IMG/VR virus record: IMGVR_UViG_3300032163_000016
Coordinates: 1-58,494 of that record
Source of the DNA: a virus
Taxonomy: Duplodnaviria > Caudoviricetes
Strand: one strand, 5' to 3'
Length of the DNA: 58,494 nucleotides
The notes beneath the pieces are model-generated. The model searched no databases. It was given only the letters and a program-made list of their open reading frames with translations, and had not been told where the DNA came from. A program made the position numbers and the translations under genes. The stretch's first letter is position 1, and each line of letters opens with the position of its first letter. Of the stretch, positions 1-34,091 are shown piece after piece.

Positions 1-155
1 GGCTCGATCACTTCAACCTCGGAACAGGGCGTAGTTATTGGCAGCACAACTCAAGATGGCACTTTGACATTATGGAGTCCAACCTATGACTATCTAGGTG
101 TGCTTTCTCCGGCCACACTTACTGGTGGACGAGCTTGGACAATGCCGAATGCGAG
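1..155. repeat. Terminal direct repeat (identical to 58340-58494); circular-assembly overlap
   Basis: Bases 1-155 match 58340-58494 exactly. The sequence is also an internal repeat unit of the tail-fibre gene. Confidence 0.9.
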
Positions 156-890: not shown

Positions 891-2250
891 GTGGAGCGCG
901 GCAAACGACAAACTGGCCGTTATTTCTTCTGCCACACTGAGCAACAGTAGGGCTTATAGTTTGCCAAACCTATCTGGCACGTTTGCGTTGACAACCAACT
1001 CTACATTCGGTTCTGGTTCAATCTGGAATGGGGCGGCAATTGATACTCAATACACGGATGCGAAAGTACGGAAGATCATCGCGGGAAGTAACGTAACAAT
1101 TTCGCCAACCTCTGGGCTTGGCGATGTAACGATCAATTCTCTTGGTGGTGTGGATAGCGTGTACAGGCTAATCTATTCCAGCGCATCGGACACAACGGCT
1201 GCAGGAACGGTTGGAACAAAGGTTTTCTTCGAGAACCTTCCAGGATGGTATACAAAAGTCAGGGCGTACTATACTCGTCAAGCGTCTGATTCGGCACTTG
1301 TGGCAAAATTTTTGATGACAGTAAAGAAAAATTCAGTAGGTGGTTCTGCGTGTCTTTATTTTGGGGATGCTCCGAGTGTCACAATTAACCATACCACAGT
1401 AGATACATTGATTACGCTAAGAACTGTTGTTGGTACTGCCATTGCCGATTCGGTTTACACCATAGAATTTCAGTTAAAGGCGGAGGATCAAACAGATTCT
1501 GTTCTTGTAAAGCATCTCAATATCTACGCCGTGAAATATACAACGGGTGGCGGTGGGGGCGGGGGCGGCAAATCTTATATTACGCAACCCGCCGACAAAC
1601 CGCCGGATAATTCTAACTCCTTTGACGATGAATTTAACATCTCAACGATTGACACCACAAGCAAATGGAAGTGGCGCAATCGGGGAGTGACGACATACTT
1701 GGCTGCCCAGCAAAGTTTCTGTGTTATGAGAGACACAGGAACTGGCGCAACAAGCAACTGGAGAATCTTGGAGCAAACCATCACGGACACTACCTGGTCG
1801 ATCACCGCGAAGATCTCCTACGCGTCAGCGGCGGGAGCGTTCAACAATGTCGGCCTAATCGCTTTCGACTTGACCAACGGAAGACTCCTGGACTTCGGCC
1901 CTGCGCAGGATGCTTCTTACTGTTACGTCCAGTTGAACAAGTACAACTCCGTGACTTCCTACAACAGCAGCGGCTACTCCAAGACGGTAAATGCTAACGC
2001 CGGTTTGACCGCCTACTATCGACTAAGGAAAGATTCGGCAAAGAACTTCTACGCGGATCTCTCGCAGGATGGTGTCGTCTGGTCCTGTGTCTGGTCTGAG
2101 GCTGGCTCGACGTTCATCGAATCAAGCGGCAAAGTCGATCGGATAGGGATAGGTGTCAACGCGTACGGTTCTGGAATCATAGCGCCTGGAGTATTCTGGT
2201 TTTTCCGTTACAACTGGACAGCAGATTTCGACCCAACGACGGATAACTGA
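1..2250 (+). CDS. Tail fibre/adhesin, 3' part (continues from 57134 across the junction; ~1150 aa in total)
   Basis: Frame is open from position 1 and in frame with the ORF running off the right end. It has Thr/Ser/Gly-rich repeats, a poly-Gly linker and a C-terminal beta-sandwich/lectin-like domain (DDEFN...KWKWRN). Confidence 0.75.
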   Translation, partial: GSITSTSEQGVVIGSTTQDGTLTLWSPTYDYLGVLSPATLTGGRAWTMPNASGTVAVNVGSMAYADSTKYHGSESITTLSPSIAIYTSGSITSTSEQGIVIGSTTQDGTLTLWSPTYDYLGVLSPATLTGGRAWTMPNASGTVAVNVGSMAYADSTKYHGSESITTLSPSIAIYTSGSITSTSEQGIVIGSTTQDGTLTLWSPTYDYLGVLSPATLTGGRAWTMPNASGTVITTGNLLNITATSPLADSCLATISTAGKVSGSAITTDNIYTSGSITSTSEQGVVIGSTTQDGSLTLWSAANDKLAVISSATLSNSRAYSLPNLSGTFALTTNSTFGSGSIWNGAAIDTQYTDAKVRKIIAGSNVTISPTSGLGDVTINSLGGVDSVYRLIYSSASDTTAAGTVGTKVFFENLPGWYTKVRAYYTRQASDSALVAKFLMTVKKNSVGGSACLYFGDAPSVTINHTTVDTLITLRTVVGTAIADSVYTIEFQLKAEDQTDSVLVKHLNIYAVKYTTGGGGGGGGKSYITQPADKPPDNSNSFDDEFNISTIDTTSKWKWRNRGVTTYLAAQQSFCVMRDTGTGATSNWRILEQTITDTTWSITAKISYASAAGAFNNVGLIAFDLTNGRLLDFGPAQDASYCYVQLNKYNSVTSYNSSGYSKTVNANAGLTAYYRLRKDSAKNFYADLSQDGVVWSCVWSEAGSTFIESSGKVDRIGIGVNAYGSGIIAPGVFWFFRYNWTADFDPTTDN

Positions 2251-3986: not shown

Positions 3987-4005
3987 TTAGCACCTCGAAC
4001 AGACG

Positions 4006-4034
4006 AGGATAGTTGATTTTGAACCGAATGTCAA
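4006..4034 (-). promoter_or_regulatory. sigma70-like promoter TTGACA-17-TATCCT
   Basis: The minus strand reads TTGACA (4034-4029), a 17-nt spacer and TATCCT (4011-4006), 20 nt upstream of the start of 3597..3986. Confidence 0.7.
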
Positions 4035-4049
4035 GAACAAAGTGAGGCG

Positions 4050-4250
4050 ATGCCAAATCCCCGACCGATAGCGGCTTTTCTCAACGAGGCAACGGAGGCA
4101 CAGCGCGACTTCGGGTATAACCTTATTGACAGGTTTGTAGAAGCAGGTTATGACCTTAGATCAAGTATTTACTGGAAGGAGCGCGTGAAGAGCCGCCAAA
4201 TTCAGGATGCAAGAAAATTCGCAGAAGAACTGACGGAGGATTCGCGTTGA
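4050..4250 (+). CDS. Hypothetical protein
   Basis: 66-aa ORF with GAGG SD. Confidence 0.55.
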   Translation: MPNPRPIAAFLNEATEAQRDFGYNLIDRFVEAGYDLRSSIYWKERVKSRQIQDARKFAEELTEDSR

Positions 4251-4274
4251 AAGCGAAAAAAAGGAGACACAGCA

Positions 4275-4904
4275 ATGCCAAATCCATACCAAAGAGGACC
4301 AAACATACCCAGAGACGTAATCACGCAACTGGCGGATCTGCCGTACTCTGGTGCTGGGGTCAAGACACTAGAGGATTTGAAGAGGTCATATGGGATAGGA
4401 CCATCGAGGATAGGTGACATTTTCGGGGCAAAAAGACGCAACCTAGCCAACAGAAGGGGCCAAGCGCTATCAAGTGCCTCTGCCCGTCTTGGAACCCGTG
4501 TAGCCACGCCTGAGAGCATTTTCACGCCCATTGAGGGTGAGTTTGCAGGCGCGTTCGGCGAGTTAGAAGCTCAGGAAGCCGGGGCGGAGGTCGGTCAGGA
4601 GAATTTCCTCACCCAGTTGTTGAACAGTGTGCGGCAGGGCGAGAACCAATTCCAACTCGGCAAGCAAGGTCTTCAATTATCCGCACTAGGGCAACAGTTC
4701 CAGCAGGACTATTACGAACAGAACCAACCCGGATGGTTAGATGATCTCCTTTCAGGTATCGGTGTTGGTGCTCAAGGTGCTGGTGCGCTAGGATGGAAAC
4801 CATTCGCCTCGGGTGGATCAAAAACATCAGGGGAGTCAAGTGGTGGGAGTGACACAATTGCGCTACTGGCATCATTGGCGCAACTCGCCGCAATGTTTGC
4901 ATAG
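4275..4904 (+). CDS. Putative internal virion (ejection) protein
   Basis: AGGAG SD; Gly/Ala/Gln-rich and helical with a C-terminal hydrophobic patch; lies just before the large ejection proteins. Confidence 0.55.
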   Translation: MPNPYQRGPNIPRDVITQLADLPYSGAGVKTLEDLKRSYGIGPSRIGDIFGAKRRNLANRRGQALSSASARLGTRVATPESIFTPIEGEFAGAFGELEAQEAGAEVGQENFLTQLLNSVRQGENQFQLGKQGLQLSALGQQFQQDYYEQNQPGWLDDLLSGIGVGAQGAGALGWKPFASGGSKTSGESSGGSDTIALLASLAQLAAMFA

Positions 4905-4915
4905 GAGGATGAACA

Positions 4916-6142
4916 ATGGCCGGACAGATTTACAGAGCGATCAGACGAAACCCCGATGCGATCACCGCATTAGCGACACTTCTCGCAGGTGGCACGGCAG
5001 AAAGGGAGAGACGGCAGCAATACCAGGATATTGTCAATCTTCTGACAACGACAGAGATTGGACCATCGCCTGAGATAGAAGCACGCGCCGCCGCATTGGA
5101 AGGAATGCCAACCATCGAAGCGCAGCCGCCCAGCAAGAGAGAGATTCACTCAGATGCGGGGACAATGCCAGCGACACAGGTTCCGCACGAACCAGCGGTA
5201 GCAACAAGGCGGATGAGGGGCATCGGGGAACTCGGAGGACGGGACTTTCTGCGTTTACTATCACTCCTCAGAGTACCAGCGGGAAGCGCGATTGAGATGT
5301 TGGCAAGAACAGAGGAAAGTCGTAGACCGAAAGTGACATTCGCACCTGCGGGCGCTCAACCAGGAAGGATTAGCCCGACCGGAGAGTGGACCCCACTTGG
5401 CGCGCCCGTTCCGAGAGCAGATGTAAGCATCACGGGTTACGAAGATTTTCGAGCTGGAGGAGTAAGAAGAAAGACAGCCGAAGAGTGGGAGCAGGCGAGA
5501 ACGAAACCAGAAAAGCCGACATCGGTGTGGCTCGGGACTGAGGATGTAAAGGACGGCGGAAAGACCAAGAAGGCAGACATCTACGGTTACTACGATGAGA
5601 CTGGGAAGAAAGTCGTGACGGATCGGAAGTATCAGGATTTCTCGAAGCAAGAGGGGCTCTCAGACGCCGACAAGCGTTACTACGAAACGCAGATCAGGGG
5701 TCTCACAGAGAAGAACCTGAAACTTGGGAAGCAGATCAAGGATGTGTACGGGCAATATCAATCATTCGAGGGTGGAAGGGGTCTACTTGCAAAGGGTGGT
5801 GGTCTTCGCTATACGGACTCGAAGGGAGAGTTGGTTGAACTAAGAGGCGATGAAGCCGCAGCGAAGACTCAACAAATCGAGCAAGCCGTTAAAGCCGCGA
5901 AGGATGAACTCGAAGAGAACGAGAGGATGATCGAGTATTACAACTCGCTCATTGGCGGGAGATTCAAAGCGCGGGAATATAGAGAAGGATCATCCAGTGG
6001 GGTAGAAAAACTCACTGCAGAAAGACAGACTGGTCAGGGTGCGGCAACGGAGCAGGGCGGACTTCCCGCATTGCTACCGGGTGAAACCAAAGACCAGTAC
6101 ATCCAACGGTTAAAGGCTAATGGCTATACCATTACCCAATAG
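4916..6142 (+). CDS. Putative internal virion (ejection) protein
   Basis: AGGAGG SD; charged coiled-coil protein directly upstream of the giant protein. Confidence 0.55.
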   Translation: MAGQIYRAIRRNPDAITALATLLAGGTAERERRQQYQDIVNLLTTTEIGPSPEIEARAAALEGMPTIEAQPPSKREIHSDAGTMPATQVPHEPAVATRRMRGIGELGGRDFLRLLSLLRVPAGSAIEMLARTEESRRPKVTFAPAGAQPGRISPTGEWTPLGAPVPRADVSITGYEDFRAGGVRRKTAEEWEQARTKPEKPTSVWLGTEDVKDGGKTKKADIYGYYDETGKKVVTDRKYQDFSKQEGLSDADKRYYETQIRGLTEKNLKLGKQIKDVYGQYQSFEGGRGLLAKGGGLRYTDSKGELVELRGDEAAAKTQQIEQAVKAAKDELEENERMIEYYNSLIGGRFKAREYREGSSSGVEKLTAERQTGQGAATEQGGLPALLPGETKDQYIQRLKANGYTITQ

Positions 6143-20837: not shown

Positions 20838-21884
20838 ATGACAACGCAGAACCCAGAGACCGAAGAACCCGAAGTCATTGAGGTTCCGGCGACCGCCGAG
20901 ACACTTGAGCAAGAGGAATTCTCTCTACTCAAGATCGGGTCAGAGAAAGAATTCACCGAGGCATTGACGAAGGTGGACAATGCCCTGAAGTTGGTTGACC
21001 AACTCAGGGGATTCTGCCTTCAACGTTCAAAGCCGAATGATTGGCTAGACACAGGCGGCAATCCGTACTTCACCGATGCTGGCTGCAATCGCTTTCGCGC
21101 CCCGTTCGGAATGTATGAGCAAGGTGTGAAGATGTGGACGATTGACAGCAATGGGATTCGGAAGGAGATCAATGAGCGCACCGTCTTCGAGGGCGAGATC
21201 GACTTCATCTTTTTCGAGGGAATCATCGGCTCGAAGTTGCTCGGAGTAGAGGCCAGTTTCCAAGGTGGAAGTCGCCCCTCCAAAGAAGATGCCTTTAGAT
21301 CCAAAGAAGACATTCTCTTCTACATCCAGAAGGGCAAAGCCAACTGGAACGGTCGCGGATTCCGCAAATTGTTGGGTTTGGAGAACCTGACTTGGGACGA
21401 TTTGAGCAACGCGGGGATCAACCGAGAAAAGGTGCGGAGAGTCGAATACTTGACCACCGAAAAGGGAAATCCCAAGGAGGCGAAGAAACTCTGGGATATG
21501 CTCCTCGAACTCAACGATGGCGATCCGACAAAGGCGGAGGATTACCTGTTCAATTTAACGAACACCGGCGAGTACAAGGGCAAGCGCAAGCCATCGCAAC
21601 TGACCGCGAAACAAATGCCCTGGATCACCAAGAAGGTTCAGGCGGAATGGGAGAAGCGGTTCCCCGAGAAACTCTCACAGGAACCGAAGGCCGAAGCCGC
21701 AAAGGTCACGGATGATTCCTTCCAGAAGTCCATTGCGAACTTGAAGGCCCATATTGAAGAGAAGGACTGGGCGGATCTGCTCGCGAAGTTCCACATTCAA
21801 GATGTTGTGGAGATTGCGATTGACAAGCGGAACACGTTCTTGCTTGAACTCGGTAAGGCCGCGCACAAGAAGGGAGGGAAGTGA
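20838..21884 (+). CDS. Putative single-strand annealing/recombination protein
   Basis: AGGAGG SD; paired with the downstream exonuclease, the usual SSAP-exonuclease layout. The function is inferred from position. Confidence 0.45.
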   Translation: MTTQNPETEEPEVIEVPATAETLEQEEFSLLKIGSEKEFTEALTKVDNALKLVDQLRGFCLQRSKPNDWLDTGGNPYFTDAGCNRFRAPFGMYEQGVKMWTIDSNGIRKEINERTVFEGEIDFIFFEGIIGSKLLGVEASFQGGSRPSKEDAFRSKEDILFYIQKGKANWNGRGFRKLLGLENLTWDDLSNAGINREKVRRVEYLTTEKGNPKEAKKLWDMLLELNDGDPTKAEDYLFNLTNTGEYKGKRKPSQLTAKQMPWITKKVQAEWEKRFPEKLSQEPKAEAAKVTDDSFQKSIANLKAHIEEKDWADLLAKFHIQDVVEIAIDKRNTFLLELGKAAHKKGGK

Positions 21885-22951
21885 AGATGATTAACCTCGC
21901 GAAAGATTCTCTCCCGACAACGCGGGAACTCGCCGCCCTAGTGGAAAAGTCCGTAGAGGACAAGATCAAGATGTATCCTCGGAATTCCATCTGGGCAAGT
22001 CAATTAGATCATCCCTGCCTCAGATACAACGAATACGGACTAACGCGCTGGAAAGATCAAGCCCCGGTCAATCGCTGGTTGCAGGAGATATTTGAAGAGG
22101 GCAAGGACCAAGAAGAGATCGTGAAGAAGGCATTGATCGAGGCCGGATATTTGCTCCGCCAATCGCAACGACCATTGGTGGAGACCGTGAAAAATAACGG
22201 TAGCGAATCCCGCTACAAGATCAGTGGGCGGCTGGATGTGGAAATCACGCACCCCTATCTCCTGAGAAACATCTGGTATCCCGCCGAGATCAAGTCAGTT
22301 GATTCATTTATGTTCGACTCAATCAACGAGGAGAAAGGAGCCGAACAGTTCCTTGAGAGCAAGCGGTGGTATGTCCGGCAATATCCAGGACAGATCATCT
22401 TCTACTTGTACGCATCGGGCAAGGAACTGGGTCTGATGATCTTCAAGAACAAGTTGGCGCGCCGGATGAAATTCGTGTGGGCGAAACTGGACTACGACAT
22501 CGCCGAGCGGATGTTGCAGAAGGCCGAAGAGATCAACCGAGTCGTGGCTAAAGTAGAGAAGAACCCCGATAAGGCAGAGGACCTGTTGAGTCCCCGCCTC
22601 GAGGGGAATGAGCAGGTATGTTCCAAGTGCTCATTCGCGCATATCTGTCTACCGAGTATGCAATTCGGCGGGACGGAGATCGAACTGGATCCCGAGATAG
22701 AGACGAAACTCCGTGAATGGATTCGGCTGAAAGAGGAAAAGGAGAAGTTTGAGGAGTTAGATGAGGAAGTCAAAGAGCCATTCAAGAAGCGGGGGCCGGG
22801 CTTGTATCTCGTCGGTGGATCGTTCAATGTCAAAGTGAGCACATTCAGCCGTGCCGTGTACAACGTGCCAGCGGAACTCAAAGAGCAATATCGAGAGCAA
22901 GCGACATCGACGCGGGTGGACATTAAGCAATTAGATGGAAAGGCGAAGTGA
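21881..22951 (+). CDS. Cas4-like PD-(D/E)xK exonuclease
   Basis: ASQLDHPC, ISGRLD, AEIKS, QxxxY and CSKCSFAHIC (split 1+3 Cys Fe-S ligands). Confidence 0.85.
   Translation: MKMINLAKDSLPTTRELAALVEKSVEDKIKMYPRNSIWASQLDHPCLRYNEYGLTRWKDQAPVNRWLQEIFEEGKDQEEIVKKALIEAGYLLRQSQRPLVETVKNNGSESRYKISGRLDVEITHPYLLRNIWYPAEIKSVDSFMFDSINEEKGAEQFLESKRWYVRQYPGQIIFYLYASGKELGLMIFKNKLARRMKFVWAKLDYDIAERMLQKAEEINRVVAKVEKNPDKAEDLLSPRLEGNEQVCSKCSFAHICLPSMQFGGTEIELDPEIETKLREWIRLKEEKEKFEELDEEVKEPFKKRGPGLYLVGGSFNVKVSTFSRAVYNVPAELKEQYREQATSTRVDIKQLDGKAK
22406..22537 (+). repeat. 132-bp inverted repeat, copy 1 (inside the exonuclease gene)
   Basis: Reverse complement of 25431-25562 with 3 mismatches. Confidence 0.95.
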
Positions 22952-23640: not shown

Positions 23641-24105
23641 TTGTTCTTTGAGGCAAGCACACAGTTGCTGCTAAGGAACGGGGAACGATTTGTAGAATCG
23701 ATGGTCATAGTTTGACAACCGTTCCAGCGATTGTCGTGCTTGCCATTGTTCTTTGAATGTTGCAGTTGTTTCTGACCAGCAGCAGCCTTTGGATAGCGTA
23801 ACCTATGCCAAGGGTGCACCTAGGCGAAAGCCGATGGTTCAAATACGAGCTAACTGGCGACCAGACAAGCAAAGTGCTTGCTGACAACTGCAACTTAATT
23901 CTTGGATGGCCGTGGTGTGGGAACCTAATCTTGGAGACGGGCATTGGTTGTGACTGAGGATATTCAAGGAACCCAGCAACGAGATTGCAGACCAACTGCC
24001 AGCCACCCATTGATTGTATTCCGGTTTAGCCTTTCGCCGGAGTAAAAGCAAAGGCATTAATCCTCCCTCTGGGCCGCCGTGTACGGTGCGCGGCGGCTCG
24101 GTTTA
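23640..24105 (+). ncRNA. Candidate structured non-coding RNA region
   Basis: No credible ORF; several nested inverted repeats, a GGC-GAAA-GCC tetraloop and a terminal GC-rich hairpin. Confidence 0.45.
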
Positions 24106-24121
24106 ATAAGGAGAAAAACGA

Positions 24122-24793
24122 ATGTGCTTTCTTGAGCCACGGGTACTGCGAATTACGACAGAGCAAAATCGCATACCAGACGCAGTTCTGGTTGACATTC
24201 TGTGTGTGTATGAATTCGCTAAGAGGGAAGACATTCCAGCACTGCCCAATGAGTTGATTTGCAAGCGAAACGGTGACTTCTGGACAACTTGGACAAAGGT
24301 TTTAGACATACGAGACAACAACAAGTCTATTCCACGCAAGGAGGACATCATGAACTCAGACCAAATTGAAACAAGGTGGCAGAGGAGTTACGAAGGCATT
24401 GTTGCCGACCGCCGTGATTTCAACTTGAAGGTGAGGGAAGTATTGGAACTCGCGAGGTCAATCTACGGATATGGCGAATATGACCGCGCCGTTCAGGAAA
24501 TAAAAAATCGGCGGTTGACGATCATCGGACGGGAGAAGCGCAAGCACTTCCCGCTCAAGAAATATCAGATGCTTTTCGGTAGGCAGAAGGGCAACTGCGG
24601 TATCTGTAGACTAGAGCTTGAGGTGGCAGGACCGCCGAATGTGATCGACCATAAAGACGTCAATCGGACGAAGGGATACAACTCCGACAGCAACTTGCAA
24701 CTCGTTCATAAGGACTGTAATGCGGAGAAGGCGGCCAAAAGCATCCCGCAGCAAGCGAAGCATTACGGGGAGACAATGATGGAGTTGATATGA
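24122..24793 (+). CDS. HNH endonuclease
   Basis: CGIC...IDHKD...NLQLVHKDCNAEK; a second strong SD with in-frame ATG lies at 24350. Confidence 0.8.
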   Translation: MCFLEPRVLRITTEQNRIPDAVLVDILCVYEFAKREDIPALPNELICKRNGDFWTTWTKVLDIRDNNKSIPRKEDIMNSDQIETRWQRSYEGIVADRRDFNLKVREVLELARSIYGYGEYDRAVQEIKNRRLTIIGREKRKHFPLKKYQMLFGRQKGNCGICRLELEVAGPPNVIDHKDVNRTKGYNSDSNLQLVHKDCNAEKAAKSIPQQAKHYGETMMELI

Positions 24794-25056
24794 ACCGCAC
24801 CCTGAAATTTTTTGCGCGCCCGAATCCGGTCTGGGGATTCATCTTACTGATGCTGATTGTTCTGGCGGCGTGGCTGATAGCGGGACTAATCATAGAGAAT
24901 CCCATAGTTGCCCGGGTCGCCGTTGCCGCGTTCTTGATTTTCCCAGTGGCATTTGTGGTGAGGGGTCTCGCCCTAACGTGGTACGAAGTCGAAGAGAAGG
25001 TGCGCGGATTTTTTGAAGCCATCAATGCAGAATCAACGAAGAGGGACTGCGACTAA
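24790..25056 (+). CDS. Two-TM membrane protein
   Basis: Two hydrophobic helices; ATGA overlap with the upstream gene. Confidence 0.65.
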   Translation: MNRTLKFFARPNPVWGFILLMLIVLAAWLIAGLIIENPIVARVAVAAFLIFPVAFVVRGLALTWYEVEEKVRGFFEAINAESTKRDCD

Positions 25057-26969
25057 TGAAGTTTCTGGACTGGAAATCTTGCTATAAAGAATCTGGCAAA
25101 AATCTCTGGGTCCCGTTAGCGTACACCCACCCAGCGAAGATGTCTGTCGGATTATGCCGCAAAATCTTCGCGTTTATGGAAGAGAAGGGGATGCTGAAGA
25201 AGGGGAATGTGGTCTGCGATCCCTTTGCGGGAATCTTCACGACGGGACTAATCGGAGCAATGAAGGGGTATCGGGTTGTGGGAGTTGAACTCGAAGAGAA
25301 GTTCTGCAAGTTGTCCAAGCAGAACATCGAGAAGAACCATAAGATTCTTGAGAGGCTTGGTGTGCCCATTCCTGAAATTTATCAAGCAGATAGTAGAAAA
25401 CTTTCAGAGGTGATCGCATTTCGCCAAGCCGTTGATCTCTTCGGCCTTCTGCTACATCCGCTCGGCGATGTCGTAGTCCAGTTTCGCCCAGACGAATTTC
25501 ATCCGACGCGCCAACTTGTTCTTGAAGATCATCAGACCCAGTTCCTTGCCCGATGCGTACAAAAAGTGGAAGGAATTGTGACAAGTCCACCATTTTCAAT
25601 GGCGAATTGCCAACCGGTTAGTTCGACGGTATTAGGATCGGGACAAGGAGTGCGGAGTAAATATAAGGAAATTGGTAAACGACCCGATGATAATTTGGGT
25701 GGAACCAAAGGACAGATTGCAATTTTGAAGGAAGGGTCCATCTCCGCCGTTCTGACAAGCCCGCCGTACGCAGATACTCCGACAAGCGCACAAAATGTTG
25801 GGAACACAATCAAGAAGAATTGGGGCAAGGGCAGAAGGCTTGTTGATGACAAAGAACCAAACTATGGAATGGAAGTTGGTCAAATCGGTTCTCTCAAAGA
25901 CAAAGGCATCGACGCCGTTATCACCTCGCCGCCCTATGCTGAGATACGACAGGATGGAGGTTCTACGAGACCCGGGTACACCGGCATGACGCCTTACAGC
26001 GGTGAACCCCGAAATGCTTGGCGAACGACTCGCAATCAAGAGAACATTGGCAATGTGCCCGAGGGCGATGTTGATAGTGTGATAGGAGGAACAACATGCG
26101 ATACTGTGAAGATTGTGGGAAATCAGTTGGTCCCCAAAGTAGATGGTGCAAGAAATGTTATCGATACCACATCGGGAGGCCGGGAGTCCCCAAGACAGAA
26201 GAACATAAGCGGAAGATCGGACTTGGACATCTCAACATCGCAGATCCGTTGCACTACGCCGACAAAAACAAGAATTGGAAAGGTGGAGATGAGAGGTGGA
26301 GGGGATTCGCGTGGAGAATCCAAAGACGTAAAGCACTCGCCCACGACAACTATCAATGCCGAAAATGTGGAGCACGAGAGTATCTCGTTGTCCATCACAA
26401 GAAAGACAAAACCCAAACAGGAGGGGAGTGGGACAACTCGATTGAAAACCTTGAAACACTCTGTCGAACCTGTCACAACCAGCATCACAGCAAGGACGAA
26501 AGAATCTACAGAATTAAATGCAAAGTTTGTGGCAACTATTACACTAGTAGAAGCGCGGTTCCAGGAGCCTGCTCCCGTAAGTGCAGGACAAAACTCAACA
26601 CAGCCAAGCACAGAAAATGGGTTCAAAAGAAACGAGCCGCCGACATATTGGTCGGAGATGGCCAAAATATATCTTGAATGCTGGAAGATTTTGAAACCTA
26701 ACGGGTATATGGCAATCACAGTTAAGGACTTTGTACGCGCAAAAAAGCGCGTACCCCTATGCGACAATACCGTGAAGTTGCTTGAGCATCTTGGATTCAA
26801 AGTCGAATACCGTGCCCGTGCTTGGTTGACTGAGGATTTAGGAACCCCCGATGCCTTCACGGGAAGGACCAAGAGCAAACAAAGGAAGTCATTTTTCAGA
26901 AGGCTGGCAGAAAGTAAAGGCAGTCCGAGGATAGATTGGGAGGAGGTTCTGATATGCCAGAAGATTTAA
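25056..26969 (+). CDS. Amino (N4C/N6A) DNA methyltransferase with triplicated SPP(Y/F) modules and two in-frame insertions
   Basis: HPAKM, DPFAGIFTTG and GVELE; TSPPF/TSPPY/TSPPY; C-terminal YWSEMAKIYLECWKILKPNG. Confidence 0.8.
   Translation: MKFLDWKSCYKESGKNLWVPLAYTHPAKMSVGLCRKIFAFMEEKGMLKKGNVVCDPFAGIFTTGLIGAMKGYRVVGVELEEKFCKLSKQNIEKNHKILERLGVPIPEIYQADSRKLSEVIAFRQAVDLFGLLLHPLGDVVVQFRPDEFHPTRQLVLEDHQTQFLARCVQKVEGIVTSPPFSMANCQPVSSTVLGSGQGVRSKYKEIGKRPDDNLGGTKGQIAILKEGSISAVLTSPPYADTPTSAQNVGNTIKKNWGKGRRLVDDKEPNYGMEVGQIGSLKDKGIDAVITSPPYAEIRQDGGSTRPGYTGMTPYSGEPRNAWRTTRNQENIGNVPEGDVDSVIGGTTCDTVKIVGNQLVPKVDGARNVIDTTSGGRESPRQKNISGRSDLDISTSQIRCTTPTKTRIGKVEMRGGGDSRGESKDVKHSPTTTINAENVEHESISLSITRKTKPKQEGSGTTRLKTLKHSVEPVTTSITARTKESTELNAKFVATITLVEARFQEPAPVSAGQNSTQPSTENGFKRNEPPTYWSEMAKIYLECWKILKPNGYMAITVKDFVRAKKRVPLCDNTVKLLEHLGFKVEYRARAWLTEDLGTPDAFTGRTKSKQRKSFFRRLAESKGSPRIDWEEVLICQKI
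25431..25562 (-). repeat. 132-bp inverted repeat, copy 2 (antisense exonuclease fragment inside the MTase gene)
   Basis: 129/132 identical to the reverse complement of 22406-22537. Confidence 0.95.
26096..26677 (+). CDS. HNH homing endonuclease nested in an alternative frame of the MTase
   Basis: AGGAGG SD at 26084-26089; Zn fingers; NUMOD3-like KTEEHKRKI; NWKGG; CRKC...VHH...NSIENLETLCRTCH. Confidence 0.85.
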   Translation: MRYCEDCGKSVGPQSRWCKKCYRYHIGRPGVPKTEEHKRKIGLGHLNIADPLHYADKNKNWKGGDERWRGFAWRIQRRKALAHDNYQCRKCGAREYLVVHHKKDKTQTGGEWDNSIENLETLCRTCHNQHHSKDERIYRIKCKVCGNYYTSRSAVPGACSRKCRTKLNTAKHRKWVQKKRAADILVGDGQNIS

Positions 26970-27308
26970 TTTCGCTCTACGAATCAGGGAAAAGTGTGCG
27001 AAACATCTCAGAACTCAAATGAGTACGGGTACAAGTCACCTATTGGCAAAGGCAACCGTCGTGACCAATACTGGTGGAATGTTTCACCAGAAGGATTACG
27101 GTGGTTGTTGCCGCAGGTTCTTCCGTACCTGCTAGTAAAGAAAAAACACGCGGAGATTGTTCTCGAACTTCTGAGCAAAAACAGCAGAAGCAAGAGACTT
27201 CCGAATGAAAGAAAGATGGAGCTGCGAGATGAAATCCGACGACTTAATATCAAAGGACGTAAACAATCTGAGGAAGAAGTGATCTTCGTACAGAAGGCAA
27301 CAGATTAG
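26954..27308 (+). pseudogene. Degenerate LAGLIDADG-type homing endonuclease remnant
   Basis: A short ORF MPEDLISLYESGKSVRNISELK* (HTH-like, GGAGG SD) is followed in another frame by YWWNVS...LLPQVLPYLLVKKKHAEIVLE, like a LAGLIDADG C-terminal half. Confidence 0.55.
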
Positions 27309-27491
27309 ATGTCCCTCGCTCAGATCATATTACTGGGTCTCAATTCGCGCAAGACTCCGCCAGTCAGGATAAAACAATGCGACGGCTGCGGCAGATGGCG
27401 ACCAATAAGTTGGTTCTATGACCGCGACAAGAAGAAGGCGAAGGTTCGGTGCAAGAAATGCTTATCGGGAATCCAAAAGAAGAAGAACTGA
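27309..27491 (+). CDS. Small Zn-finger protein
   Basis: CDGC...CKKC. Confidence 0.55.
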   Translation: MSLAQIILLGLNSRKTPPVRIKQCDGCGRWRPISWFYDRDKKKAKVRCKKCLSGIQKKKN

Positions 27492-27847
27492 TGACCGAAA
27501 CCACGATAAAGGTATTTGAGTATCTCATCGACAGGGAAGGGTTTGTGCCAGCGATTGACTTGGCGAAAGCACTTGGGTACAAGAACGAGCGCCCATTGCG
27601 CGCCATAGGAACGACCATAGGTGTATTAGACAGGGCGAGCCGTGAGATATTTGAAGACAGGGGTTGGGTACTCATCACAAGGATGCGTGAGCCCTCGGGC
27701 GTGAAACTTAGTAAAGACCCCGAAGAAATCGCTGCCGCAAAGGAACAGTGGGTAAAATGGTTCTGGCCGATAAAGAAGAACAAGATTGATTTCTACGAAA
27801 GATGCGAACGCACGTTAAGAAGCAAGCAGATGGAGTTGGCCGTATGA
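27491..27847 (+). CDS. Winged-HTH-like protein
   Basis: VFEYLIDREGFVPAIDLAKALG; TGATG coupling with the upstream gene. Confidence 0.55.
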   Translation: MTETTIKVFEYLIDREGFVPAIDLAKALGYKNERPLRAIGTTIGVLDRASREIFEDRGWVLITRMREPSGVKLSKDPEEIAAAKEQWVKWFWPIKKNKIDFYERCERTLRSKQMELAV

Positions 27848-28337: not shown

Positions 28338-28973
28338 ATGATTGAACCATATTACTCTGAGGATGGGATCACGTTGTATTGTGCAAGAGCGGAGGATGTT
28401 TTGCCGCAACTATCTGAGAAAAGCGTGGACTTTGGATTTGCAGACCCACCCTATGGAATTGAGAAAGCAGAGTGGGATTGTCGGTATCCGGAATGGTGGT
28501 TTGAGCGGGAGCTATTGCGCGTATGTACGCGGGGTGTGGCGGTGACTCCGGGGCAGGATAACATTGCGACTTGCATTATGAGAATGGGGAATGATTACAG
28601 AGGAATTCATTTTGCGAGGAATTTGAACGGAATGACGTTTGGCGGGATAGGTTTCGAGAACTTTATTGCTGCGGTAATAGGAGGAGAAGCACGGCGCGGG
28701 ATGAGTTACTTTGATTTTGTGGTGCGGGGAGAGAAGCCCAAACATCCTTCGCCAAAACCGACCGAGTATATGGCGAAATTGCTTGAGAGATTCACGGAAG
28801 AGAAAGAAATTGTGATAGATTGCTTTGTGGGCAGCGGTACTACTCTTGTTGCGGCAAAACGTCTTGGGCGTAAGGCGGTTGGGATTGAGATGAGCGAGGC
28901 ATACTGCAAAATAGCAGTACAAAGGTTGAGTCAAAAAGAACTCTTCGGAATTGAGAACGGGCATGGCATATAA
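28338..28973 (+). CDS. Cassette gene, beta-class N6A/N4C DNA methyltransferase
   Basis: ADPPY, HPSPKP, DCFVGSGTT and GIE; the stop codon lies within the ATAAC box. Confidence 0.9.
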   Translation: MIEPYYSEDGITLYCARAEDVLPQLSEKSVDFGFADPPYGIEKAEWDCRYPEWWFERELLRVCTRGVAVTPGQDNIATCIMRMGNDYRGIHFARNLNGMTFGGIGFENFIAAVIGGEARRGMSYFDFVVRGEKPKHPSPKPTEYMAKLLERFTEEKEIVIDCFVGSGTTLVAAKRLGRKAVGIEMSEAYCKIAVQRLSQKELFGIENGHGI

Positions 28974-29025
28974 CTACGGTAACTACGCACTTTTTGTTCG
29001 TAGTACTGTCCTATGGACGAAATGA
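28970..29025 (+). repeat. 56-bp array-end element, copy 1
   Basis: 55/56 identical to 30844-30899; contains two small hairpins. Confidence 0.9.
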
Positions 29026-29046
29026 GACAAAAAAAGGAGTAACAGG

Positions 29047-30625: not shown

Positions 30626-30847
30626 ATGAAGACAAAATTAACTCAAAAACAGAAAGATGACTTTGCTGACATTATTGCCAGCTATTCGATAATCAGTGTA
30701 AAAATGAACGGCAAGGAGATTTGGGACTGTACTGGGAAAGAAACTAAAGATTCCATCAAGTTAGGGATTACTGCCGAACACAAAAGAATATATGTGAGGG
30801 GAATCGTTAGCGAGATACTGGACTATGTTTCAAAAAATTGCACATAA
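30626..30847 (+). CDS. Cassette gene, hypothetical
   Basis: 73 aa; the stop codon lies within the CATAAC box. Confidence 0.6.
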   Translation: MKTKLTQKQKDDFADIIASYSIISVKMNGKEIWDCTGKETKDSIKLGITAEHKRIYVRGIVSEILDYVSKNCT

Positions 30848-30899
30848 CTACGGTAACTACGCACTTTTTGTTTGTAGTACTGTCCTATGGACGAAATGA
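30844..30899 (+). repeat. 56-bp array-end element, copy 2
   Basis: Matches 28970-29025 with one mismatch. Confidence 0.9.
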
Positions 30900-30924
30900 A
30901 TCAAAAGTGAAAGGAGCCTGAGAA

Positions 30925-32711: not shown

Positions 32712-34091
32712 GTGGATCACCTTGATTTGTTCTCAGGAATCGGTGGTTTCGCTCTCGCGGCGAAATGGGTTTGGAAGGATGAATACGTAAATGTCGGACA
32801 CTCGGAAATTGACAAATACTGCTGCCAAGTCTATCACAAGCGATTCCCCGAAAGCAAATGCTTCGGAGACATCACGAAGGTTGACTGGTCGAAAGTCAAA
32901 GCGAAACTCGTTACAGGGGGATTTCCTTGCCAGCCATTCAGTGTTGCCGGGAAGCGAAGAGGCAAGGCGGATGACCGCTACCTCTGGCCGCCAATGTTTG
33001 ATGCGATACGAGCAATTCATCCGAGGTTCGTGGTCGTTGAGAATGTGCCGGGTCTTGATGACAAAACCTATCTGGCACTCGATGGCTGTATCTCTGATTT
33101 GGAAAGCGCGGGCTACGAAGTCGCGCCGCCGTTTTGGATTCCAGCTTGTGCCATTGGTGCGCCGCATAAAAGGGAGAGAATTTGGATTCTTGCTCACCAC
33201 GCCAACATCAATGGATGGTATGCAAAGCAAGAAAAAACGAGATCGGCTTTTCATAACAAAAAACCAAACGGTGAGATACCGGGGCAAGGGCGGCAAAACA
33301 AGCAATGCGGGATTACGCAGTCAACTGGAACATTATCTTGCATTATTGCCAACACCAGAATCACGGGACTATCGGAGTCCAGACTGCAATCCAAAAACGA
33401 GAAGGCAACGTGTAAAGTCAGAACTCAACACGACCATAGGGTTAATTCCCACGCCGCGCCTAAAAATGGTGAACGGGCCAAGTCAATCAGAGATAGACGC
33501 AGGGGACCCGAAGCGGAGAATCGAGGTCACAATTGGAATGAACCCTGGCTTGAAGTTGCAACCCGCCTTTGTGGAACACCTAATGGGCTATCCGCTTGGC
33601 TGGACCGAAATAACGGAGGATTGAATGGGTCAACCGCAAAAAAGGTTACCCGACAAAATCTGCCCTATTTGTGGCACTATATTCAACAGGAAGCGATTCG
33701 GCAAGACCCTGGAGGATGCGAATCGATACCAGACACGCAAAACCTGTTCGCAGTCTTGTGGCAACACTTTACTCGAACCACTGGACAGAAGCACCTATTA
33801 CTTGAGAGCGCGGAAGCATCTGAAGCCCGCCTGCGAAACGTGTGGATCGAAAATCAAGTTGGACGTTCACCACAAAGACGGGAATATCAAGAACGAGCAA
33901 CCGGAGAATTTGCAGACGCTTTGCCACTGCTGTCACATGAAGTTGCATTGGCGACAGAGAAAATGGTGAAGCGGTATTCTGCCCATCGGGTGGACAGACT
34001 TAGAGCATTAGGCAACGCAATTATGTGGCAACTGGCCGCCGCGATGATGCAGGCCATGAAGGAAGTTGACGATAAGGAGATAGGAACATGA
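32712..34091 (+). CDS. C5-cytosine DNA methyltransferase, large (alpha) polypeptide lacking motif IX
   Basis: DLFSGIGG, GDI, GGFPCQPFS, ENV, HKRERIW and motif X RLRALGNAI. Confidence 0.9.
   Translation: MDHLDLFSGIGGFALAAKWVWKDEYVNVGHSEIDKYCCQVYHKRFPESKCFGDITKVDWSKVKAKLVTGGFPCQPFSVAGKRRGKADDRYLWPPMFDAIRAIHPRFVVVENVPGLDDKTYLALDGCISDLESAGYEVAPPFWIPACAIGAPHKRERIWILAHHANINGWYAKQEKTRSAFHNKKPNGEIPGQGRQNKQCGITQSTGTLSCIIANTRITGLSESRLQSKNEKATCKVRTQHDHRVNSHAAPKNGERAKSIRDRRRGPEAENRGHNWNEPWLEVATRLCGTPNGLSAWLDRNNGGLNGSTAKKVTRQNLPYLWHYIQQEAIRQDPGGCESIPDTQNLFAVLWQHFTRTTGQKHLLLESAEASEARLRNVWIENQVGRSPQRREYQERATGEFADALPLLSHEVALATEKMVKRYSAHRVDRLRALGNAIMWQLAAAMMQAMKEVDDKEIGT
32791..33624 (+). CDS. Overlapping beta polypeptide of the C5 MTase (TRD repeats plus motif IX); true start uncertain (e.g. 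32971)
   Basis: LLTTPT/LLPTP/LIPTP repeats and LQPAFVEHLMGYPLGWT in the +1 frame, as in the M.EcoHK31I alpha/beta arrangement. Confidence 0.75.
   Translation: MSDTRKLTNTAAKSITSDSPKANASETSRRLTGRKSKRNSLQGDFLASHSVLPGSEEARRMTATSGRQCLMRYEQFIRGSWSLRMCRVLMTKPIWHSMAVSLIWKARATKSRRRFGFQLVPLVRRIKGREFGFLLTTPTSMDGMQSKKKRDRLFITKNQTVRYRGKGGKTSNAGLRSQLEHYLALLPTPESRDYRSPDCNPKTRRQRVKSELNTTIGLIPTPRLKMVNGPSQSEIDAGDPKRRIEVTIGMNPGLKLQPAFVEHLMGYPLGWTEITED
33625..33969 (+). CDS. HNH endonuclease nested in the C5 MTase gene
   Basis: GGAGG SD; CPIC...TCSQSC; CETC...VHHKDGNIKNEQPENLQTLCHCCH. Confidence 0.85.
   Translation: MGQPQKRLPDKICPICGTIFNRKRFGKTLEDANRYQTRKTCSQSCGNTLLEPLDRSTYYLRARKHLKPACETCGSKIKLDVHHKDGNIKNEQPENLQTLCHCCHMKLHWRQRKW

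What the first reader, a model, noticed from the sequence alone, without database searches (positions are those of the whole stretch)
26084..26677. HNH homing endonuclease overprinted inside an amino-MTase gene, with the host frame left open
Seen: a 193-aa HNH ORF with its own AGGAGG SD lies wholly inside MTase ORF 25056-26969 in a different frame. The MTase frame stays stop-free for ~580 nt, giving a low-complexity Thr/Ser-rich stretch before the conserved YWSEMAKIY…LKP block resumes. I see no intein (C…HN) or intron hallmarks. Inference: a homing endonuclease avoids inactivating its host gene through dual coding instead of splicing.
Basis: partly seen in the sequence, partly recalled or inferred. 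Interest (0 to 1): 0.75.

Follow-up and report, generated by a model that had tools for sequence, protein, structure and literature searches.

The report
Hidden HNH gene inside phage methylase
A phage DNA methyltransferase gene carries a complete HNH endonuclease gene in another reading frame while its own frame stays open; this way for a selfish nuclease gene to live inside a gene without an intron or intein was first described in 2025.

Summary
ORF 25056-26969 (637 aa, DNA methyltransferase) contains ORF 26096-26677 (193 aa, HNH endonuclease). The HNH ORF has its own AGGAGG 6 nt before the ATG and lies in the +2 frame. The methylase frame has no stop across it.

Insert-free homologues show that the HNH gene is an insertion of 185 codons. 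It sits in a variable region of repeated SPPY motifs, between catalytic motif IV and the C-terminal core.

I found eight DNA-level cases in this methylase family, with at least three unrelated HNH types, several sites and two frame offsets. I found three more in other methylase families. The host frame is stop-free in all eleven. Synonymous-codon resampling expects 2-22 stops per case (P 0.007 here, 0 of 10,000 resamples in three others). The third frame carries 1-16 stops. No intron or intein signal was found.

So the dual-coding reading is supported. The kind is already published, as the "ShiLan domain" hidden HNH of mycobacteriophage methylases (Arsenault et al. 2025, PMC11855218). This is a new member in a different, permuted methylase family.

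Added here: evidence of selection against stops, a canonical ribosome-binding site, and a second in-frame insertion (25419-25565). That insertion is an inverted copy of part of the phage's own Cas4-like exonuclease gene.

The parts
25056..26969 (+). DNA methyltransferase ORF (637 aa) read straight through both insertions
   Evidence: One search gives the ORF. Pfam N6_N4_Mtase matches at 7.5e-12, with aa 8-88 aligned to profile positions 151-220. 478 homologues have E<=1e-3.
25218..25247 (+). AdoMet-binding motif I (DPFAGIFTTG). It lies at the N-terminus, so the domain order is permuted relative to canonical PF01555 enzymes.
   Evidence: D55, F57 and G59 are invariant in 78 sequences.
25419..25565 (+). 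Insertion 1: 147 nt (49 codons, no stop), absent from all aligned homologues. Nt 25431-25562 are a 98% inverted copy of 22406-22537.
   Evidence: alignments; repeat. AF2 pLDDT is 42-66.
22406..22537 (+). Source of insertion 1, inside the Cas4-domain exonuclease gene 21881-22951
   Evidence: phrog_1990 (Cas4-domain exonuclease) matches at 6.2e-19.
25581..25598 (+). Catalytic motif IV (TSPPFS), the first and invariant SPP(Y/F)
   Evidence: S177 and P179 are invariant in 78 sequences. Position.
25599..26084 (+). Variable region with two further G.I..LK.G.i.AV.TSPPYA repeats (25755-25775, 25923-25943), ending in GDVDSVI
   Evidence: Homologues carry 1 to about 5 such repeats. pLDDT is below 50.
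26084..26089 (+). Shine-Dalgarno AGGAGG of the nested HNH gene, 6 nt before the ATG
   Evidence: Similar SDs precede the nested HNH in L007, L029, L072 and L075.
26096..26677 (+). Nested HNH endonuclease gene (193 aa). It has an N-terminal CxxC...CxxC, a CRKCG...VVHH...N...CRTCH core and a C-terminal CxxC...CxxxC.
   Evidence: Nearest solved structure by sequence is 5h0m, E 2e-4. It is 57% identical to P0121/L007.
26085..26639 (+). Read-through of the HNH cassette in the methylase frame (185 codons, Thr/Ser/Gly/Lys-rich). It has no homology to insert-free methylases and is predicted disordered.
26640..26966 (+). Conserved C-terminal methylase core ((P)TYWSEMAKIY...KILKPNG...RKSFFRRL...IDWEEV). 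Its first 38 nt also encode the HNH tail.
   Evidence: pLDDT is 90-98.
24122..24793 (+). Free-standing HNH / endonuclease VII-like gene just upstream. It is not part of the nested element.
   Evidence: Pfam HNH 4.7e-5; PHROGs. Its two alternative frames have 11 and 15 stops.
26123..26878 (-). 251-aa open frame on the opposite strand, in codon register with the HNH frame. This is an antisense by-product, not a gene.
   Evidence: (no family)

Best explanation
The element is an HNH homing-type endonuclease cassette, consisting of an SD, an ATG and a 193-codon gene. It sits inside the phage's DNA methyltransferase gene, in the variable SPPY-repeat region between catalytic motif IV and the C-terminal core.

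One mRNA is read in two ways.
- Ribosomes that start at 25056 translate straight through the cassette in the methylase frame. This gives a 637-aa methylase in which the cassette appears as a 185-aa, probably disordered, loop.
- Ribosomes that start at the internal AGGAGG-ATG (26096) make the 193-aa nuclease.

No splicing is needed. Selection removes stop codons from the methylase frame, mainly through the choice of NTC/NTT codons for Leu, Ile and Val in the HNH gene.

Shown here: the anatomy, that the cassette is an insertion, stop avoidance specific to the host frame, recurrence in unrelated HNH types, sites and methylase families, and lack of intron or intein signals.

Inferred: that both proteins are made, that the methylase still works, and that the nuclease cuts insert-free alleles (homing).
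For: **Anatomy.**

**Insertion.** Defined against 12 and 11 homologues. The minimal family members have one SPPY and about 35 aa before the (E)T(Y/F)W helix (L053), so this region tolerates large length changes.

**Stop avoidance** (mean stops expected in the host frame against observed, by synonymous resampling):

| Case | Expected | Observed | P or count |
|---|---|---|---|
| window | 3.97 | 0 | P 0.0074 |
| L007 | 2.6-3.3 | 0 | P 0.02-0.05 |
| L034 | 11.0 | 0 | 0 of 4,000 |
| L051 | 6.0 | 0 | P 0.002 |
| L066 | 9.9 | 0 | 0 of 10,000 |
| L029 | 12.9 | 0 | 0 of 10,000 |
| L072 | 22.0 | 0 | 0 of 10,000 |
| Applejack gp55 | 5.5 | 0 | P 0.0025 |
| L075 | 2.4 | 0 | P 0.05 |
| L056 | 2.2 | 0 | P 0.06 |

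In 8 of 8 nested cases tabulated, the other alternative frame has 1-16 stops.

**Codon choice.** In the window, all 16 T-middle codons that are followed by an A- or G-starting codon avoid making a stop. Fifteen end in C or T; the sixteenth is TTG before G, which gives TGG.

**Controls.** 7 of 9 free-standing HNH ORFs in the same loci have stops in both alternative frames. So do 3 of 3.

**Which frame is conserved.** Window against L007: 57% identity in the HNH frame, 34% in the methylase-frame read-through, 38% in the third frame. Only 'no stop' is conserved in the host frame.

**Methylase flanks.** They stay conserved and in frame in invaded alleles; 25 columns are invariant across 12 sequences that include L034, L051 and L038.

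**Degenerate case.** L056 keeps the host frame open although its HNH has lost its N-terminal third.

**Structure model.** pLDDT is above 85 for aa 1-130 and about 90 or more for aa 530-637. It is below 50 for most of aa 183-528.

**Splicing signals.** No Rfam intron and no intein domain.

**Literature.** The same arrangement is published for mycobacteriophage methylases (PMC11855218).
Against: - There are no RNA or protein data, so splicing, bypass or failure to make the full-length protein are not excluded experimentally.
- The window's own P value is modest (0.007-0.015). For this HNH family and frame relation only 2-4 stops are expected, so each member alone is weak evidence.
- The family members share ancestry and are not fully independent.
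- Relative to the closest homologues (P0002, P0005) the window lacks the last TSPPYE repeat. Insertion 1 puts 49 foreign residues just before the catalytic strand. This particular methylase could therefore be impaired or dead.
- The AF2 model is uninformative for aa 183-528.
- HNH identity (57%) is about equal to host-core identity (55%) between the window and L007, and 60% against 53% for L034/L029. That gives no sign of recent transfer, and homing is not shown.
- No insert-free allele of this same phage was seen.
Confidence: 0.75

Rival explanations
1. The methylase gene of this phage is already dead or dying. On this view the open frame across the HNH gene is a legacy of an ancestor or chance, and only the HNH gene matters now.
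For: - Insertion 1 (25419-25565) places 49 foreign, antisense-derived residues 5 codons before the catalytic TSPPF, with pLDDT 42-66.
- The last TSPPYE repeat is missing relative to P0002 and P0005.
- The window's own stop-avoidance P is only 0.007-0.015.
- Decayed methylase remnants exist in related phages (L039, L058, L067, L071).
Against: - All family-invariant residues are present.
- Both insertions are multiples of three without stops.
- Some homologues also lack the last repeat (P0023) or carry about 20 extra residues at the site of insertion 1 (P0101/L038).
- The same open-frame rule holds in 8 of 8 family cases.
Confidence: 0.12
2. A cryptic self-splicing intron or another RNA- or translation-level removal (such as bypass) takes the cassette out. 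On this view the open host frame is incidental.
For: HNH genes are common passengers of phage group I introns (recalled; the title of PMC3428280 appears in the listing). The cassette sits next to a conserved catalytic motif, as introns often do.
Against: - No Rfam family reaches E<=10 as an intron in 24800-27300.
- The cassette has only 11 nt before the ATG, and the ORF runs 38 nt past the 3' boundary, leaving no room for an intron core outside the ORF.
- Host-frame-specific stop avoidance in 10 resampled cases has no purpose if the segment is removed.
- RNAweasel and MFannot were also negative for the published ShiLan-type elements (PMC11855218, section 3.5).
Confidence: 0.05
3. Stops are avoided for a reason other than methylase function. 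One possibility is preventing transcriptional polarity on downstream genes. Another is that upstream ribosomes deliver or limit translation of the HNH gene.
For: The read-through sequence itself is not conserved (34% identity). No promoter-like site above chance lies in front of the HNH gene, so it depends on the methylase transcript.
Against: The C-terminal methylase core stays conserved and in the same frame as the N-terminal core in the full-length invaded alleles (window, L034, L051, L056) and in the one with an in-frame HNH (L038). In L007, L066 and L075 the 5'-truncated host frame runs open into the C-terminal core, and L029 ends before it. That conservation is what a full-length protein needs and goes beyond what polarity needs. 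The HNH gene's own ribosomes would also protect the RNA.
Confidence: 0.05
4. The nuclease is not a selfish homing gene but a domesticated partner of the methylase. It could form a restriction-modification-like pair or a packaging or host-DNA nuclease, nested so that it is never expressed without the methylase.
For: HNH and host cores have diverged to similar degrees. That fits long co-residence. Free-standing HNH genes also lie next to these methylases (window 24122-24793; L020, L026, L039).
Against: - Only 5 of 62 IMG/VR loci of this methylase family carry an out-of-frame nested HNH, and 1 carries an in-frame one.
- At least three unrelated HNH types occur, at several sites and in two frame offsets.
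- One copy is degenerate (L056). That is the pattern expected of repeated invasion and decay.
Confidence: 0.08

Closest known systems
ShiLan domain / 'hidden' out-of-frame HNH endonuclease in mycobacteriophage DNA methylases (Arsenault, Gosselin & Gogarten 2025, Genes 16:178, PMC11855218; earlier PMC9957025; Applejack gp54/gp55 in PMC12613952)
   Same: - An HNH gene of about 195 aa with a central HNH core and flanking zinc fingers.
- It lies inside a phage PF01555-type methylase gene in another frame and starts a few nt into the insertion.
- The host frame is stop-free, there are no intron or intein signals, and the read-through is predicted as a loop.
- Applejack gp55 shows the same stop avoidance in my test: 5.5 stops expected, 0 observed, P 0.0025.
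   Different: - It is not the same element. The window HNH and Applejack gp55 align over only 91 aa at 31% (pairwise E 5e-4).
- The methylases share only motif-level similarity (27% over 71 aa).
- Domain order is opposite: Applejack has DPPY first and motif I last, while the window has motif I first.
- The insertion site in the fold differs.
- The paper found no ribosome-binding site and proposed leaderless initiation. Here a canonical AGGAGG precedes the ATG.
- In the parts I read, the paper gives no test of stop avoidance.
- I could not see its repository or supplements, which may list further cases.
Group I intron-encoded HNH homing endonucleases of phages (for example I-HmuI, recalled; I-PfoP3I, title and abstract start seen)
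   Same: An HNH gene sits inside a conserved gene next to a catalytic motif, and the host gene stays usable.
   Different: The rescue there is by RNA splicing, and introns normally carry stops in the host frame. Here no intron core is detectable and the host frame is kept open.
Inteins with homing endonuclease domains, and the cyanobacterial dnaX intein with an out-of-frame homing endonuclease (bioRxiv 10.64898/2026.09.14.751524; listing and abstract start only)
   Same: The insertion is translated with the host protein. The dnaX case also has the nuclease in another frame.
   Different: There is no Hint domain and there are no splice-junction residues here (sequence). The extra peptide is presumably kept as a loop, not spliced out.
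Free-standing homing endonuclease genes that split a host gene into working pieces (mobE in Aeromonas phage Aeh1 nrdA) or travel with a translational bypass (T4 gene 60 with mobA).
   Same: These are intron-less, intein-less ways for a homing endonuclease gene to sit in a gene without destroying it.
   Different: Those cases yield two polypeptides or a ribosome hop. Here a single continuous polypeptide is expected.

Membership tests
[quoted passage not shown] 2025) | An extra segment in a DNA methylase gene relative to insert-free homologues | tested here: met
   In alignments A1, A2 and A4, aa 344-528 have no counterpart in 12, 8 (of 11) and 11 homologues respectively. The other three rows of A2, P0014, P0061 and P0070, have residues in some of these columns; P0014 carries the same read-through.
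[quoted passage not shown] 2025) | The host reading frame has no stop across the segment | tested here: met
   0 stops in 193 codons against 3.97 expected (P 0.0074).
[quoted passage not shown] 2025) | Another frame of the segment encodes an HNH endonuclease | tested here: met
   PF01844 at E 5.6e-8. 12 of 14 matching PHROG families are HNH endonuclease families.
[quoted passage not shown] 2025) | No self-splicing intron or intein features | tested here: met
   Rfam scan at E<=10 finds no intron family. Pfam finds no Hint/intein domain. This is computational only.
[quoted passage not shown] 2025) | Disjunct distribution among related methylases, as a sign of mobility | tested here: inconclusive
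   5 of 62 IMG/VR loci carry an out-of-frame nested HNH. HNH and host cores are about equally diverged, and no empty allele of the same phage was found.
ShiLan element itself (homologous lineage) | Sequence homology of both the HNH and the host methylase to ShiLan-type genes | tested here: not met
   Against Applejack gp55 and gp54: 31% over 91 aa and 27% over 71 aa. No mycobacteriophage appears among the 25 GenBank phage records matching the HNH at E<=1e-3. No phage record matches the methylase at E<=1e-5.
PF01555 N6_N4_Mtase (beta-class amino-methyltransferases) | DPPY-type motif IV followed by the target-recognition region and a C-terminal FxGxG motif I | tested here: not met
   Only aa 8-88 match, to profile positions 151-220, so motif I comes first and SPP(F/Y) after it. 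The profile of 78 homologues hits 2zie, DpnA, M.PvuII and CcrM through the motif I part only. The enzyme is related but circularly permuted. Base specificity was not determined.
PF01844 HNH endonuclease | A beta-beta-alpha-metal core with HH...N...H and CxxC...CxxC zinc ligands | tested here: met
   (score 33.2 against cut-off 21.4). The motifs CRKCG, VVHH, NSIENL and CRTCH are at aa 88-127. Nuclease activity was not tested.
Group I intron with an HNH ORF | A conserved catalytic RNA core (P3-P9) flanking or enclosing the ORF | tested here: not met
   One search finds no match. Only 11 nt of insertion precede the ORF and none follow it.
Intein | Hint fold, N-terminal Cys/Ser, C-terminal His-Asn followed by Cys/Ser/Thr | tested here: not met
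   No Hint family found. The read-through begins GGTTC and ends ...KRNEP. The nuclease is in another frame.

The most novel reading that the evidence does not exclude
The sites beside the SPPY motifs of this methylase family are recurrent landing pads for nuclease genes. On this reading, the 147-nt in-frame insertion at 25419-25565 is a break-repair scar. It is an inverted, 98% identical copy of the phage's own Cas4-like exonuclease gene. It lies at the same inter-codon position where L034 carries a nested HNH gene. An HNH cut there would have been patched by copying ectopic DNA through microhomology, and the patch now destroys the target and blocks re-invasion.

More broadly, 'loop-out' dual coding with ordinary SD-driven internal initiation would be a general third lifestyle of homing endonuclease genes, beside introns and inteins. 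It would be spread across N6/N4 and C5 methylases of unrelated phages, including an unannotated case in Staphylococcus phage CUB-EPI_14.
Probability: 0.25. Interest if true: 0.65.

Novelty: new member of a known kind. Interest (0 to 1): 0.45.

Why it matters
Homing endonuclease genes are textbook examples of selfish DNA that survives inside genes by splicing, through introns or inteins. A third route was proposed only in 2025 from a few mycobacteriophages, without statistics or experiments: stay in the gene, be read in another frame, and keep the host frame open.

This window and the related loci found here show four things.
- The arrangement recurs in a different, permuted methylase family from uncultivated sediment phages, and in C5 methylases.
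- It involves unrelated HNH types, sites and frame offsets.
- It is maintained by selection against stops in the host frame.
- It can use an ordinary ribosome-binding site.

There is also a practical consequence. Gene callers report only the long methylase ORF. The nested HNH of the window had only two called relatives among 5.8 billion proteins, so such nucleases are systematically missed in annotation.

Tried and rejected
**Searches that added nothing**
- GenBank phages: blastn with the methylase gene gave no match. tblastn with the methylase protein gave no match at 1e-5.
- IMG/VR scan for P0014: no locus, so the nested HNH inferred for P0014, P0018 and P0034 rests on protein similarity only.
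- IMG/VR scan with the single HNH protein: six weak partial matches (L001-L006), not examined further.
- IMG/VR scan with the HNH alignment: three distant free-standing HNH genes, used only as controls.
- The metagenome scan returned only L007.
- Promoter and terminator scan of 23800-27600: nothing above the shuffles.

**Sequencing runs**
- No RNA holder is listed, so nothing can be said on expression or splicing.
- Parts of the stretch without cover in X2-X4, including the HNH gene, are not evidence.
- The joint 26023->26916 with 508 other letters in X2-X4 belongs to a diverged P0002-like relative, not to an empty allele of this phage.

**Structure**
- The AF2 model says nothing reliable about aa 183-528.
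- I did not run a fold search.

**Ideas rejected**
- De novo overprinting of an HNH gene inside a pre-existing linker. The HNH belongs to old families.
- A methylase-HNH frameshift fusion. There is no slippery site at 26084-26100, and a fusion would not need the frame open to the end.
- A real gene on the minus strand at 26123-26878. It has no family match and is in register with the HNH frame.
- Assembly artefact for insertion 1. The right junction is present in Logan contigs of X1 and of a second study, X4. The left junction was not independently seen.

**Limits of the survey**
- The search for nested nucleases used HNH queries only, so nested genes of other nuclease families would be missed.
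- The alt-frame ORF listing covered 19 of the 62 loci.
- Single stops in L043, L047 and L059 were not followed up.

- The look-up of encoding contigs was stated closed and was not called.
- Supplements and the GitHub repository of PMC11855218 could not be seen. They may hold a wider survey that overlaps these cases.
Full report
**Observation**

The window is a complete virus record of 58,494 bp with direct terminal repeats. ORF 25056-26969 (+, 637 aa) and ORF 26096-26677 (+, 193 aa) are both present, and the second lies wholly inside the first in frame +2. AGGAGG sits at 26084-26089, six bases before the ATG. Stops in the HNH frame lie just upstream.

The inner ORF is an HNH endonuclease. Pfam PF01844 matches at E 5.6e-8. 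Twelve of its 14 matching PHROG families are HNH endonuclease families. The nearest solved relative by sequence is 5h0m.

The outer ORF is a DNA methyltransferase. Pfam N6_N4_Mtase matches only aa 8-88, and it matches them to the end of the profile. The AdoMet motif I (DPFAGIFTTG) therefore comes first and the SPP(F/Y) motif IV follows, which is a permuted order.

The methylase frame has no stop over the 193 HNH codons, while the third frame has 11.

**What the insertion is**

A search of 5.8 billion proteins gave 478 relatives of the methylase at E<=1e-3, of which 120 were listed, 350-832 aa long. Alignments show a conserved N-terminal core (aa 1-120), an invariant first SPP(F/Y) (S177, P179) and a conserved C-terminal core from (E)TYW to the end.

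Between motif IV and the C-terminal core lies a very variable region made of 0-4 further copies of a unit 'YG...GQIG.L..G.iDAViTSPPY'. The shortest relatives (L053) have only about 35 residues there.

In the window, aa 344-528 (nt 26085-26639) have no counterpart in any insert-free homologue. They begin directly after GDVDSVI, where relatives continue with TSPPYE, and they end at (P)TYW. The closest relatives (P0002, P0005) have a last TSPPYE repeat of about 55 aa at this place. Others (P0023) have only 7 residues.

The HNH ORF starts 11 nt into the insertion and ends 38 nt beyond it, so its tail is encoded by conserved methylase codons. The same holds in L007.

**Is the open host frame more than chance?**

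I kept the HNH protein and redrew synonymous codons from the usage of 41 other long ORFs of the genome. This gives on average 3.97 stops in the methylase frame, and none in 0.74% of 20,000 draws. With the HNH's own usage the figure is 1.5%.

All 16 codons with T in the middle that precede an A- or G-starting codon avoid making a stop. Fifteen end in C or T, and the sixteenth is TTG before G. Low T content (18%) helps, but it is already part of the null.

**Related loci**

- The only called relatives of the HNH protein are P0121 and P0122 (57-58% identity).
- P0121's contig (L007, 1,210 nt, 61% GC) shows the same nesting. The HNH is at 319-888 and the methylase frame is open from 2 to 1207. The insertion again starts right after a 'GDLDAII' strand.
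- The window's read-through peptide matches 3 of the other 119 listed methylases: P0014 at 6e-15, P0018 at 1e-13 and P0034 at 9e-10. These presumably hold the same cassette. That evidence is biased towards open frames.
- An unbiased DNA-level sample came from IMG/VR, which gave 62 loci encoding the methylase.
  - 52 have both cores. 46 of those are in one frame without stops. 6 are shifted or interrupted.
  - Several are plain remnants (L039, L058, L067, L071).
- I scanned all 3,035 stop-to-stop ORFs of at least 70 aa in these loci with nine HNH queries. Fourteen ORFs matched.
  - Five are out-of-frame ORFs inside the methylase gene (L029, L034, L051, L056, L066).
  - One is an in-frame HNH_3 domain fused into the methylase (L038, which is P0101).
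  - Eight lie outside the methylase.
- A genome-collection scan added L075, from a Sedimentisphaerales MAG contig.

That makes eight DNA-level cases in this methylase family: the window, L007, L029, L034, L051, L056, L066 and L075. In all eight the methylase frame has no stop across the HNH ORF.

**The cases are not one event**

- The window, L007, L056 and L075 share one HNH family (41-57% identity) and frame offset.
- L029, L034 and L066 carry an HTH-HNH of another family (phrog_7545; 39-60% identity to each other) in the other offset.
- L051 carries an HNH_3 (Pfam 3.7e-9) before motif III.

These assignments rest.

**Stop avoidance in the other cases**

Host-frame stops expected against observed:

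| Locus | Expected | Observed | P or count |
|---|---|---|---|
| L034 | 11.0 | 0 | 0 of 4,000 |
| L051 | 6.0 | 0 | P 0.002 |
| L066 | 9.9 | 0 | 0 of 10,000 |
| L029 | 12.9 | 0 | 0 of 10,000 |
| L007 | 2.6-3.3 | 0 | P 0.02-0.05 |
| L075 | 2.4 | 0 | P 0.05 |
| L056 | 2.2 | 0 | P 0.06 |

The remaining frame has 1-16 stops, at or above expectation.

Free-standing HNH genes serve as controls. Seven of 9 and 3 of 3 have stops in both alternative frames. Of the two exceptions, L060 turned out to be nested in a C5 methylase. L026b is overlapped by another long ORF.

L056 is informative. Its HNH has lost the N-terminal third and has no clear start, yet the methylase frame is still open.

Between the window and L007, the HNH frame is 57% identical, the methylase-frame read-through 34% and the third frame 38%. 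In the host frame only the absence of stops is conserved.

**Other methylase families**

A weak tblastn hit led to Staphylococcus phage CUB-EPI_14 (ON325435.2). Its annotated C5-cytosine methyltransferase gp45 (601 aa; PF00145 at 2.2e-83) contains an unannotated 160-aa HNH ORF (PF01844 at 2.3e-5) with AGGAGG before its ATG. At 35% GC, 22 stops are expected in the methylase frame and none is seen.

**How it most likely works**

One transcript is read twice. It is read from 25056 through the cassette to give the 637-aa methylase with a 185-aa loop. It is read from the internal SD-ATG to give the nuclease.

The AF2 model, built on an alignment of 78 sequences, is confident for aa 1-130 and 530-637 (block means 85-98 and 79-98). 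It is below 50 for most of aa 183-528, without secondary structure. That is compatible with a loop but proves nothing.

SD-like sequences precede the start in L007 (AAGGAG), L029 (GGAG), L072 (AGGAGG) and L075 (GAGG).

No intron family is found, no intein domain and no promoter-like site above chance. Whether the methylase is active, and whether the nuclease homes, is inferred and not shown.

HNH and host cores are about equally diverged, so the cassettes may be old residents rather than recent arrivals.

**A second insertion**

Nt 25419-25565 (49 codons, no stop) are absent from every homologue. They lie between 'SRKLSEVIA' and 'VEGIVTSPPF', 5 codons before motif IV. This is the same position where L034 carries its HNH gene, and it is close to that of L029.

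Nt 25431-25562 are a 98% identical inverted copy of 22406-22537. That segment lies inside the phage's Cas4-domain exonuclease gene (21881-22951; phrog_1990 at 6e-19). It is the only inverted repeat of at least 30 nt in the genome.

The right junction is also present in Logan contigs of the probable source run and of a run from another study.

I read it as a templated patch, possibly of a nuclease-made break at a homing site. This is speculation. It also raises the chance that this particular methylase is impaired.

**Comparison with what is known**

The arrangement is published. Arsenault, Gosselin & Gogarten (Genes 2025, PMC11855218) describe the 'ShiLan domain' of mycobacteriophage methylases. 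I read the abstract, sections 1, 3 and 4, and the legends and tables. Their element is an out-of-frame 195-aa HNH with flanking zinc fingers, a stop-free host frame, no intron or intein features and a predicted loop. They also describe a second case in Pacc40. They found no ribosome-binding site and proposed leaderless initiation.

A 2025 genome announcement annotates such a pair in phage Applejack (PMC12613952; passages read). I fetched it.
- Its HNH is only distantly related to the window's, at 31% over 91 aa.
- Its methylase is a canonical PF01555 enzyme with DPPY first. It shares only motif-level similarity with the window's.
- It passes my stop-avoidance test, with 5.5 stops expected, 0 observed and P 0.0025.

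A 2026 preprint reports an out-of-frame homing endonuclease in a dnaX intein (listing only).

**Verdict**

The thing is a new member of a recently described kind and not a new kind.

New here are:
- the different, permuted methylase family from uncultivated sediment phages;
- quantitative evidence that the host frame is kept open by selection, in several independent invasions;
- the canonical SD;
- a degenerate copy that still respects the host frame;
- cases in C5 methylases;
- the ectopic in-frame patch at a second site.

Noticed in passing
window 25419-25565 and 22406-22537: A 147-nt in-frame insertion lies in the methylase gene just before catalytic motif IV. 132 nt of it are a 98% inverted copy of an internal piece of the phage's own Cas4-domain exonuclease gene. 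It is the only inverted repeat of at least 30 nt in the genome. It sits where L034 carries a nested HNH gene. It may be a templated break-repair patch.
   Followed up: partly
L072 (Staphylococcus phage CUB-EPI_14, ON325435.2) 1129-2934 and 2288-2770: The annotated C5-cytosine methyltransferase gp45 contains an unannotated 160-aa HNH ORF in another frame, with AGGAGG before its ATG. At 35% GC, 22 stops are expected in the methylase frame and none is seen.
   Followed up: yes
L060 648-2169 and 1679-2071; L026 6979-7368, 7293-8315, 8373-8867, 8338-9144: In L060, a C5 methylase whose N- and C-terminal parts lie in two frames holds a nested HNH ORF before motifs IX/X. In L026, HNH genes flank a C5 methylase. 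The downstream HNH is wholly overlapped by a 268-aa ORF with a membrane-protein-like tail.
   Followed up: partly
L038 4001-5977 (= P0101): A relative of the methylase carries an HNH_3 domain plus an HTH-like segment fused in frame at an SPPY site (Pfam 1.3e-14). This is a third way for a nuclease to sit in this gene.
   Followed up: partly
L056 4522-4944 within 4001-5263: This is a 5'-truncated remnant of the window-type HNH gene, with no clear start. The methylase frame is still open across it, as expected if selection acts on the host frame.
   Followed up: yes
window 25581-26084 and homologues; X4 contig joint 25578->25753: The methylase family carries 1 to about 5 repeats of a 'G.iDAViTSPPY' unit. 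A low-depth contig from another sample lacks exactly 174 nt between the first two repeats. In L029, L066 and L075 the cassette is flanked by two copies of the strand that precedes SPPY.
   Followed up: no
L039, L058, L063, L067, L071: These loci hold decayed or rearranged copies of the methylase gene. Examples are an N-terminal 50 aa joined out of frame to the last 30 aa (L071), a lone C-terminal 30 aa (L067) and a frameshift (L063).
   Followed up: partly
window 25878-26083 versus P0002 and contigs of runs X2-X4: The stretch just upstream of the HNH cassette is far more similar to the HNH-free relative P0002 than the rest of the protein is. It is about 87% identical at the nucleotide level and nearly identical in protein, against 56% overall. 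This looks like within-gene mosaicism.
   Followed up: no
window 24122-24793 and 33808-33957: The genome has two further HNH-type sequences. One is a free-standing 223-aa HNH / endonuclease VII-like gene directly upstream of the methylase operon. The other is a weak HNH match near 33.8 kb.
   Followed up: partly
window 1-974 and 58034-58494; 28963-29032 and 30837-30906: Tandem repeats of about 264 nt lie at both genome ends and form part of the terminal repeat. A pair of 70-nt direct repeats (93% identical) lies 1,874 nt apart.
   Followed up: no
L044 1-2025: The methylase frame stays open for about 440 codons upstream of the point where homology begins. No N-terminal core is detectable there. 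The region is GC-rich and its content was not identified.
   Followed up: no
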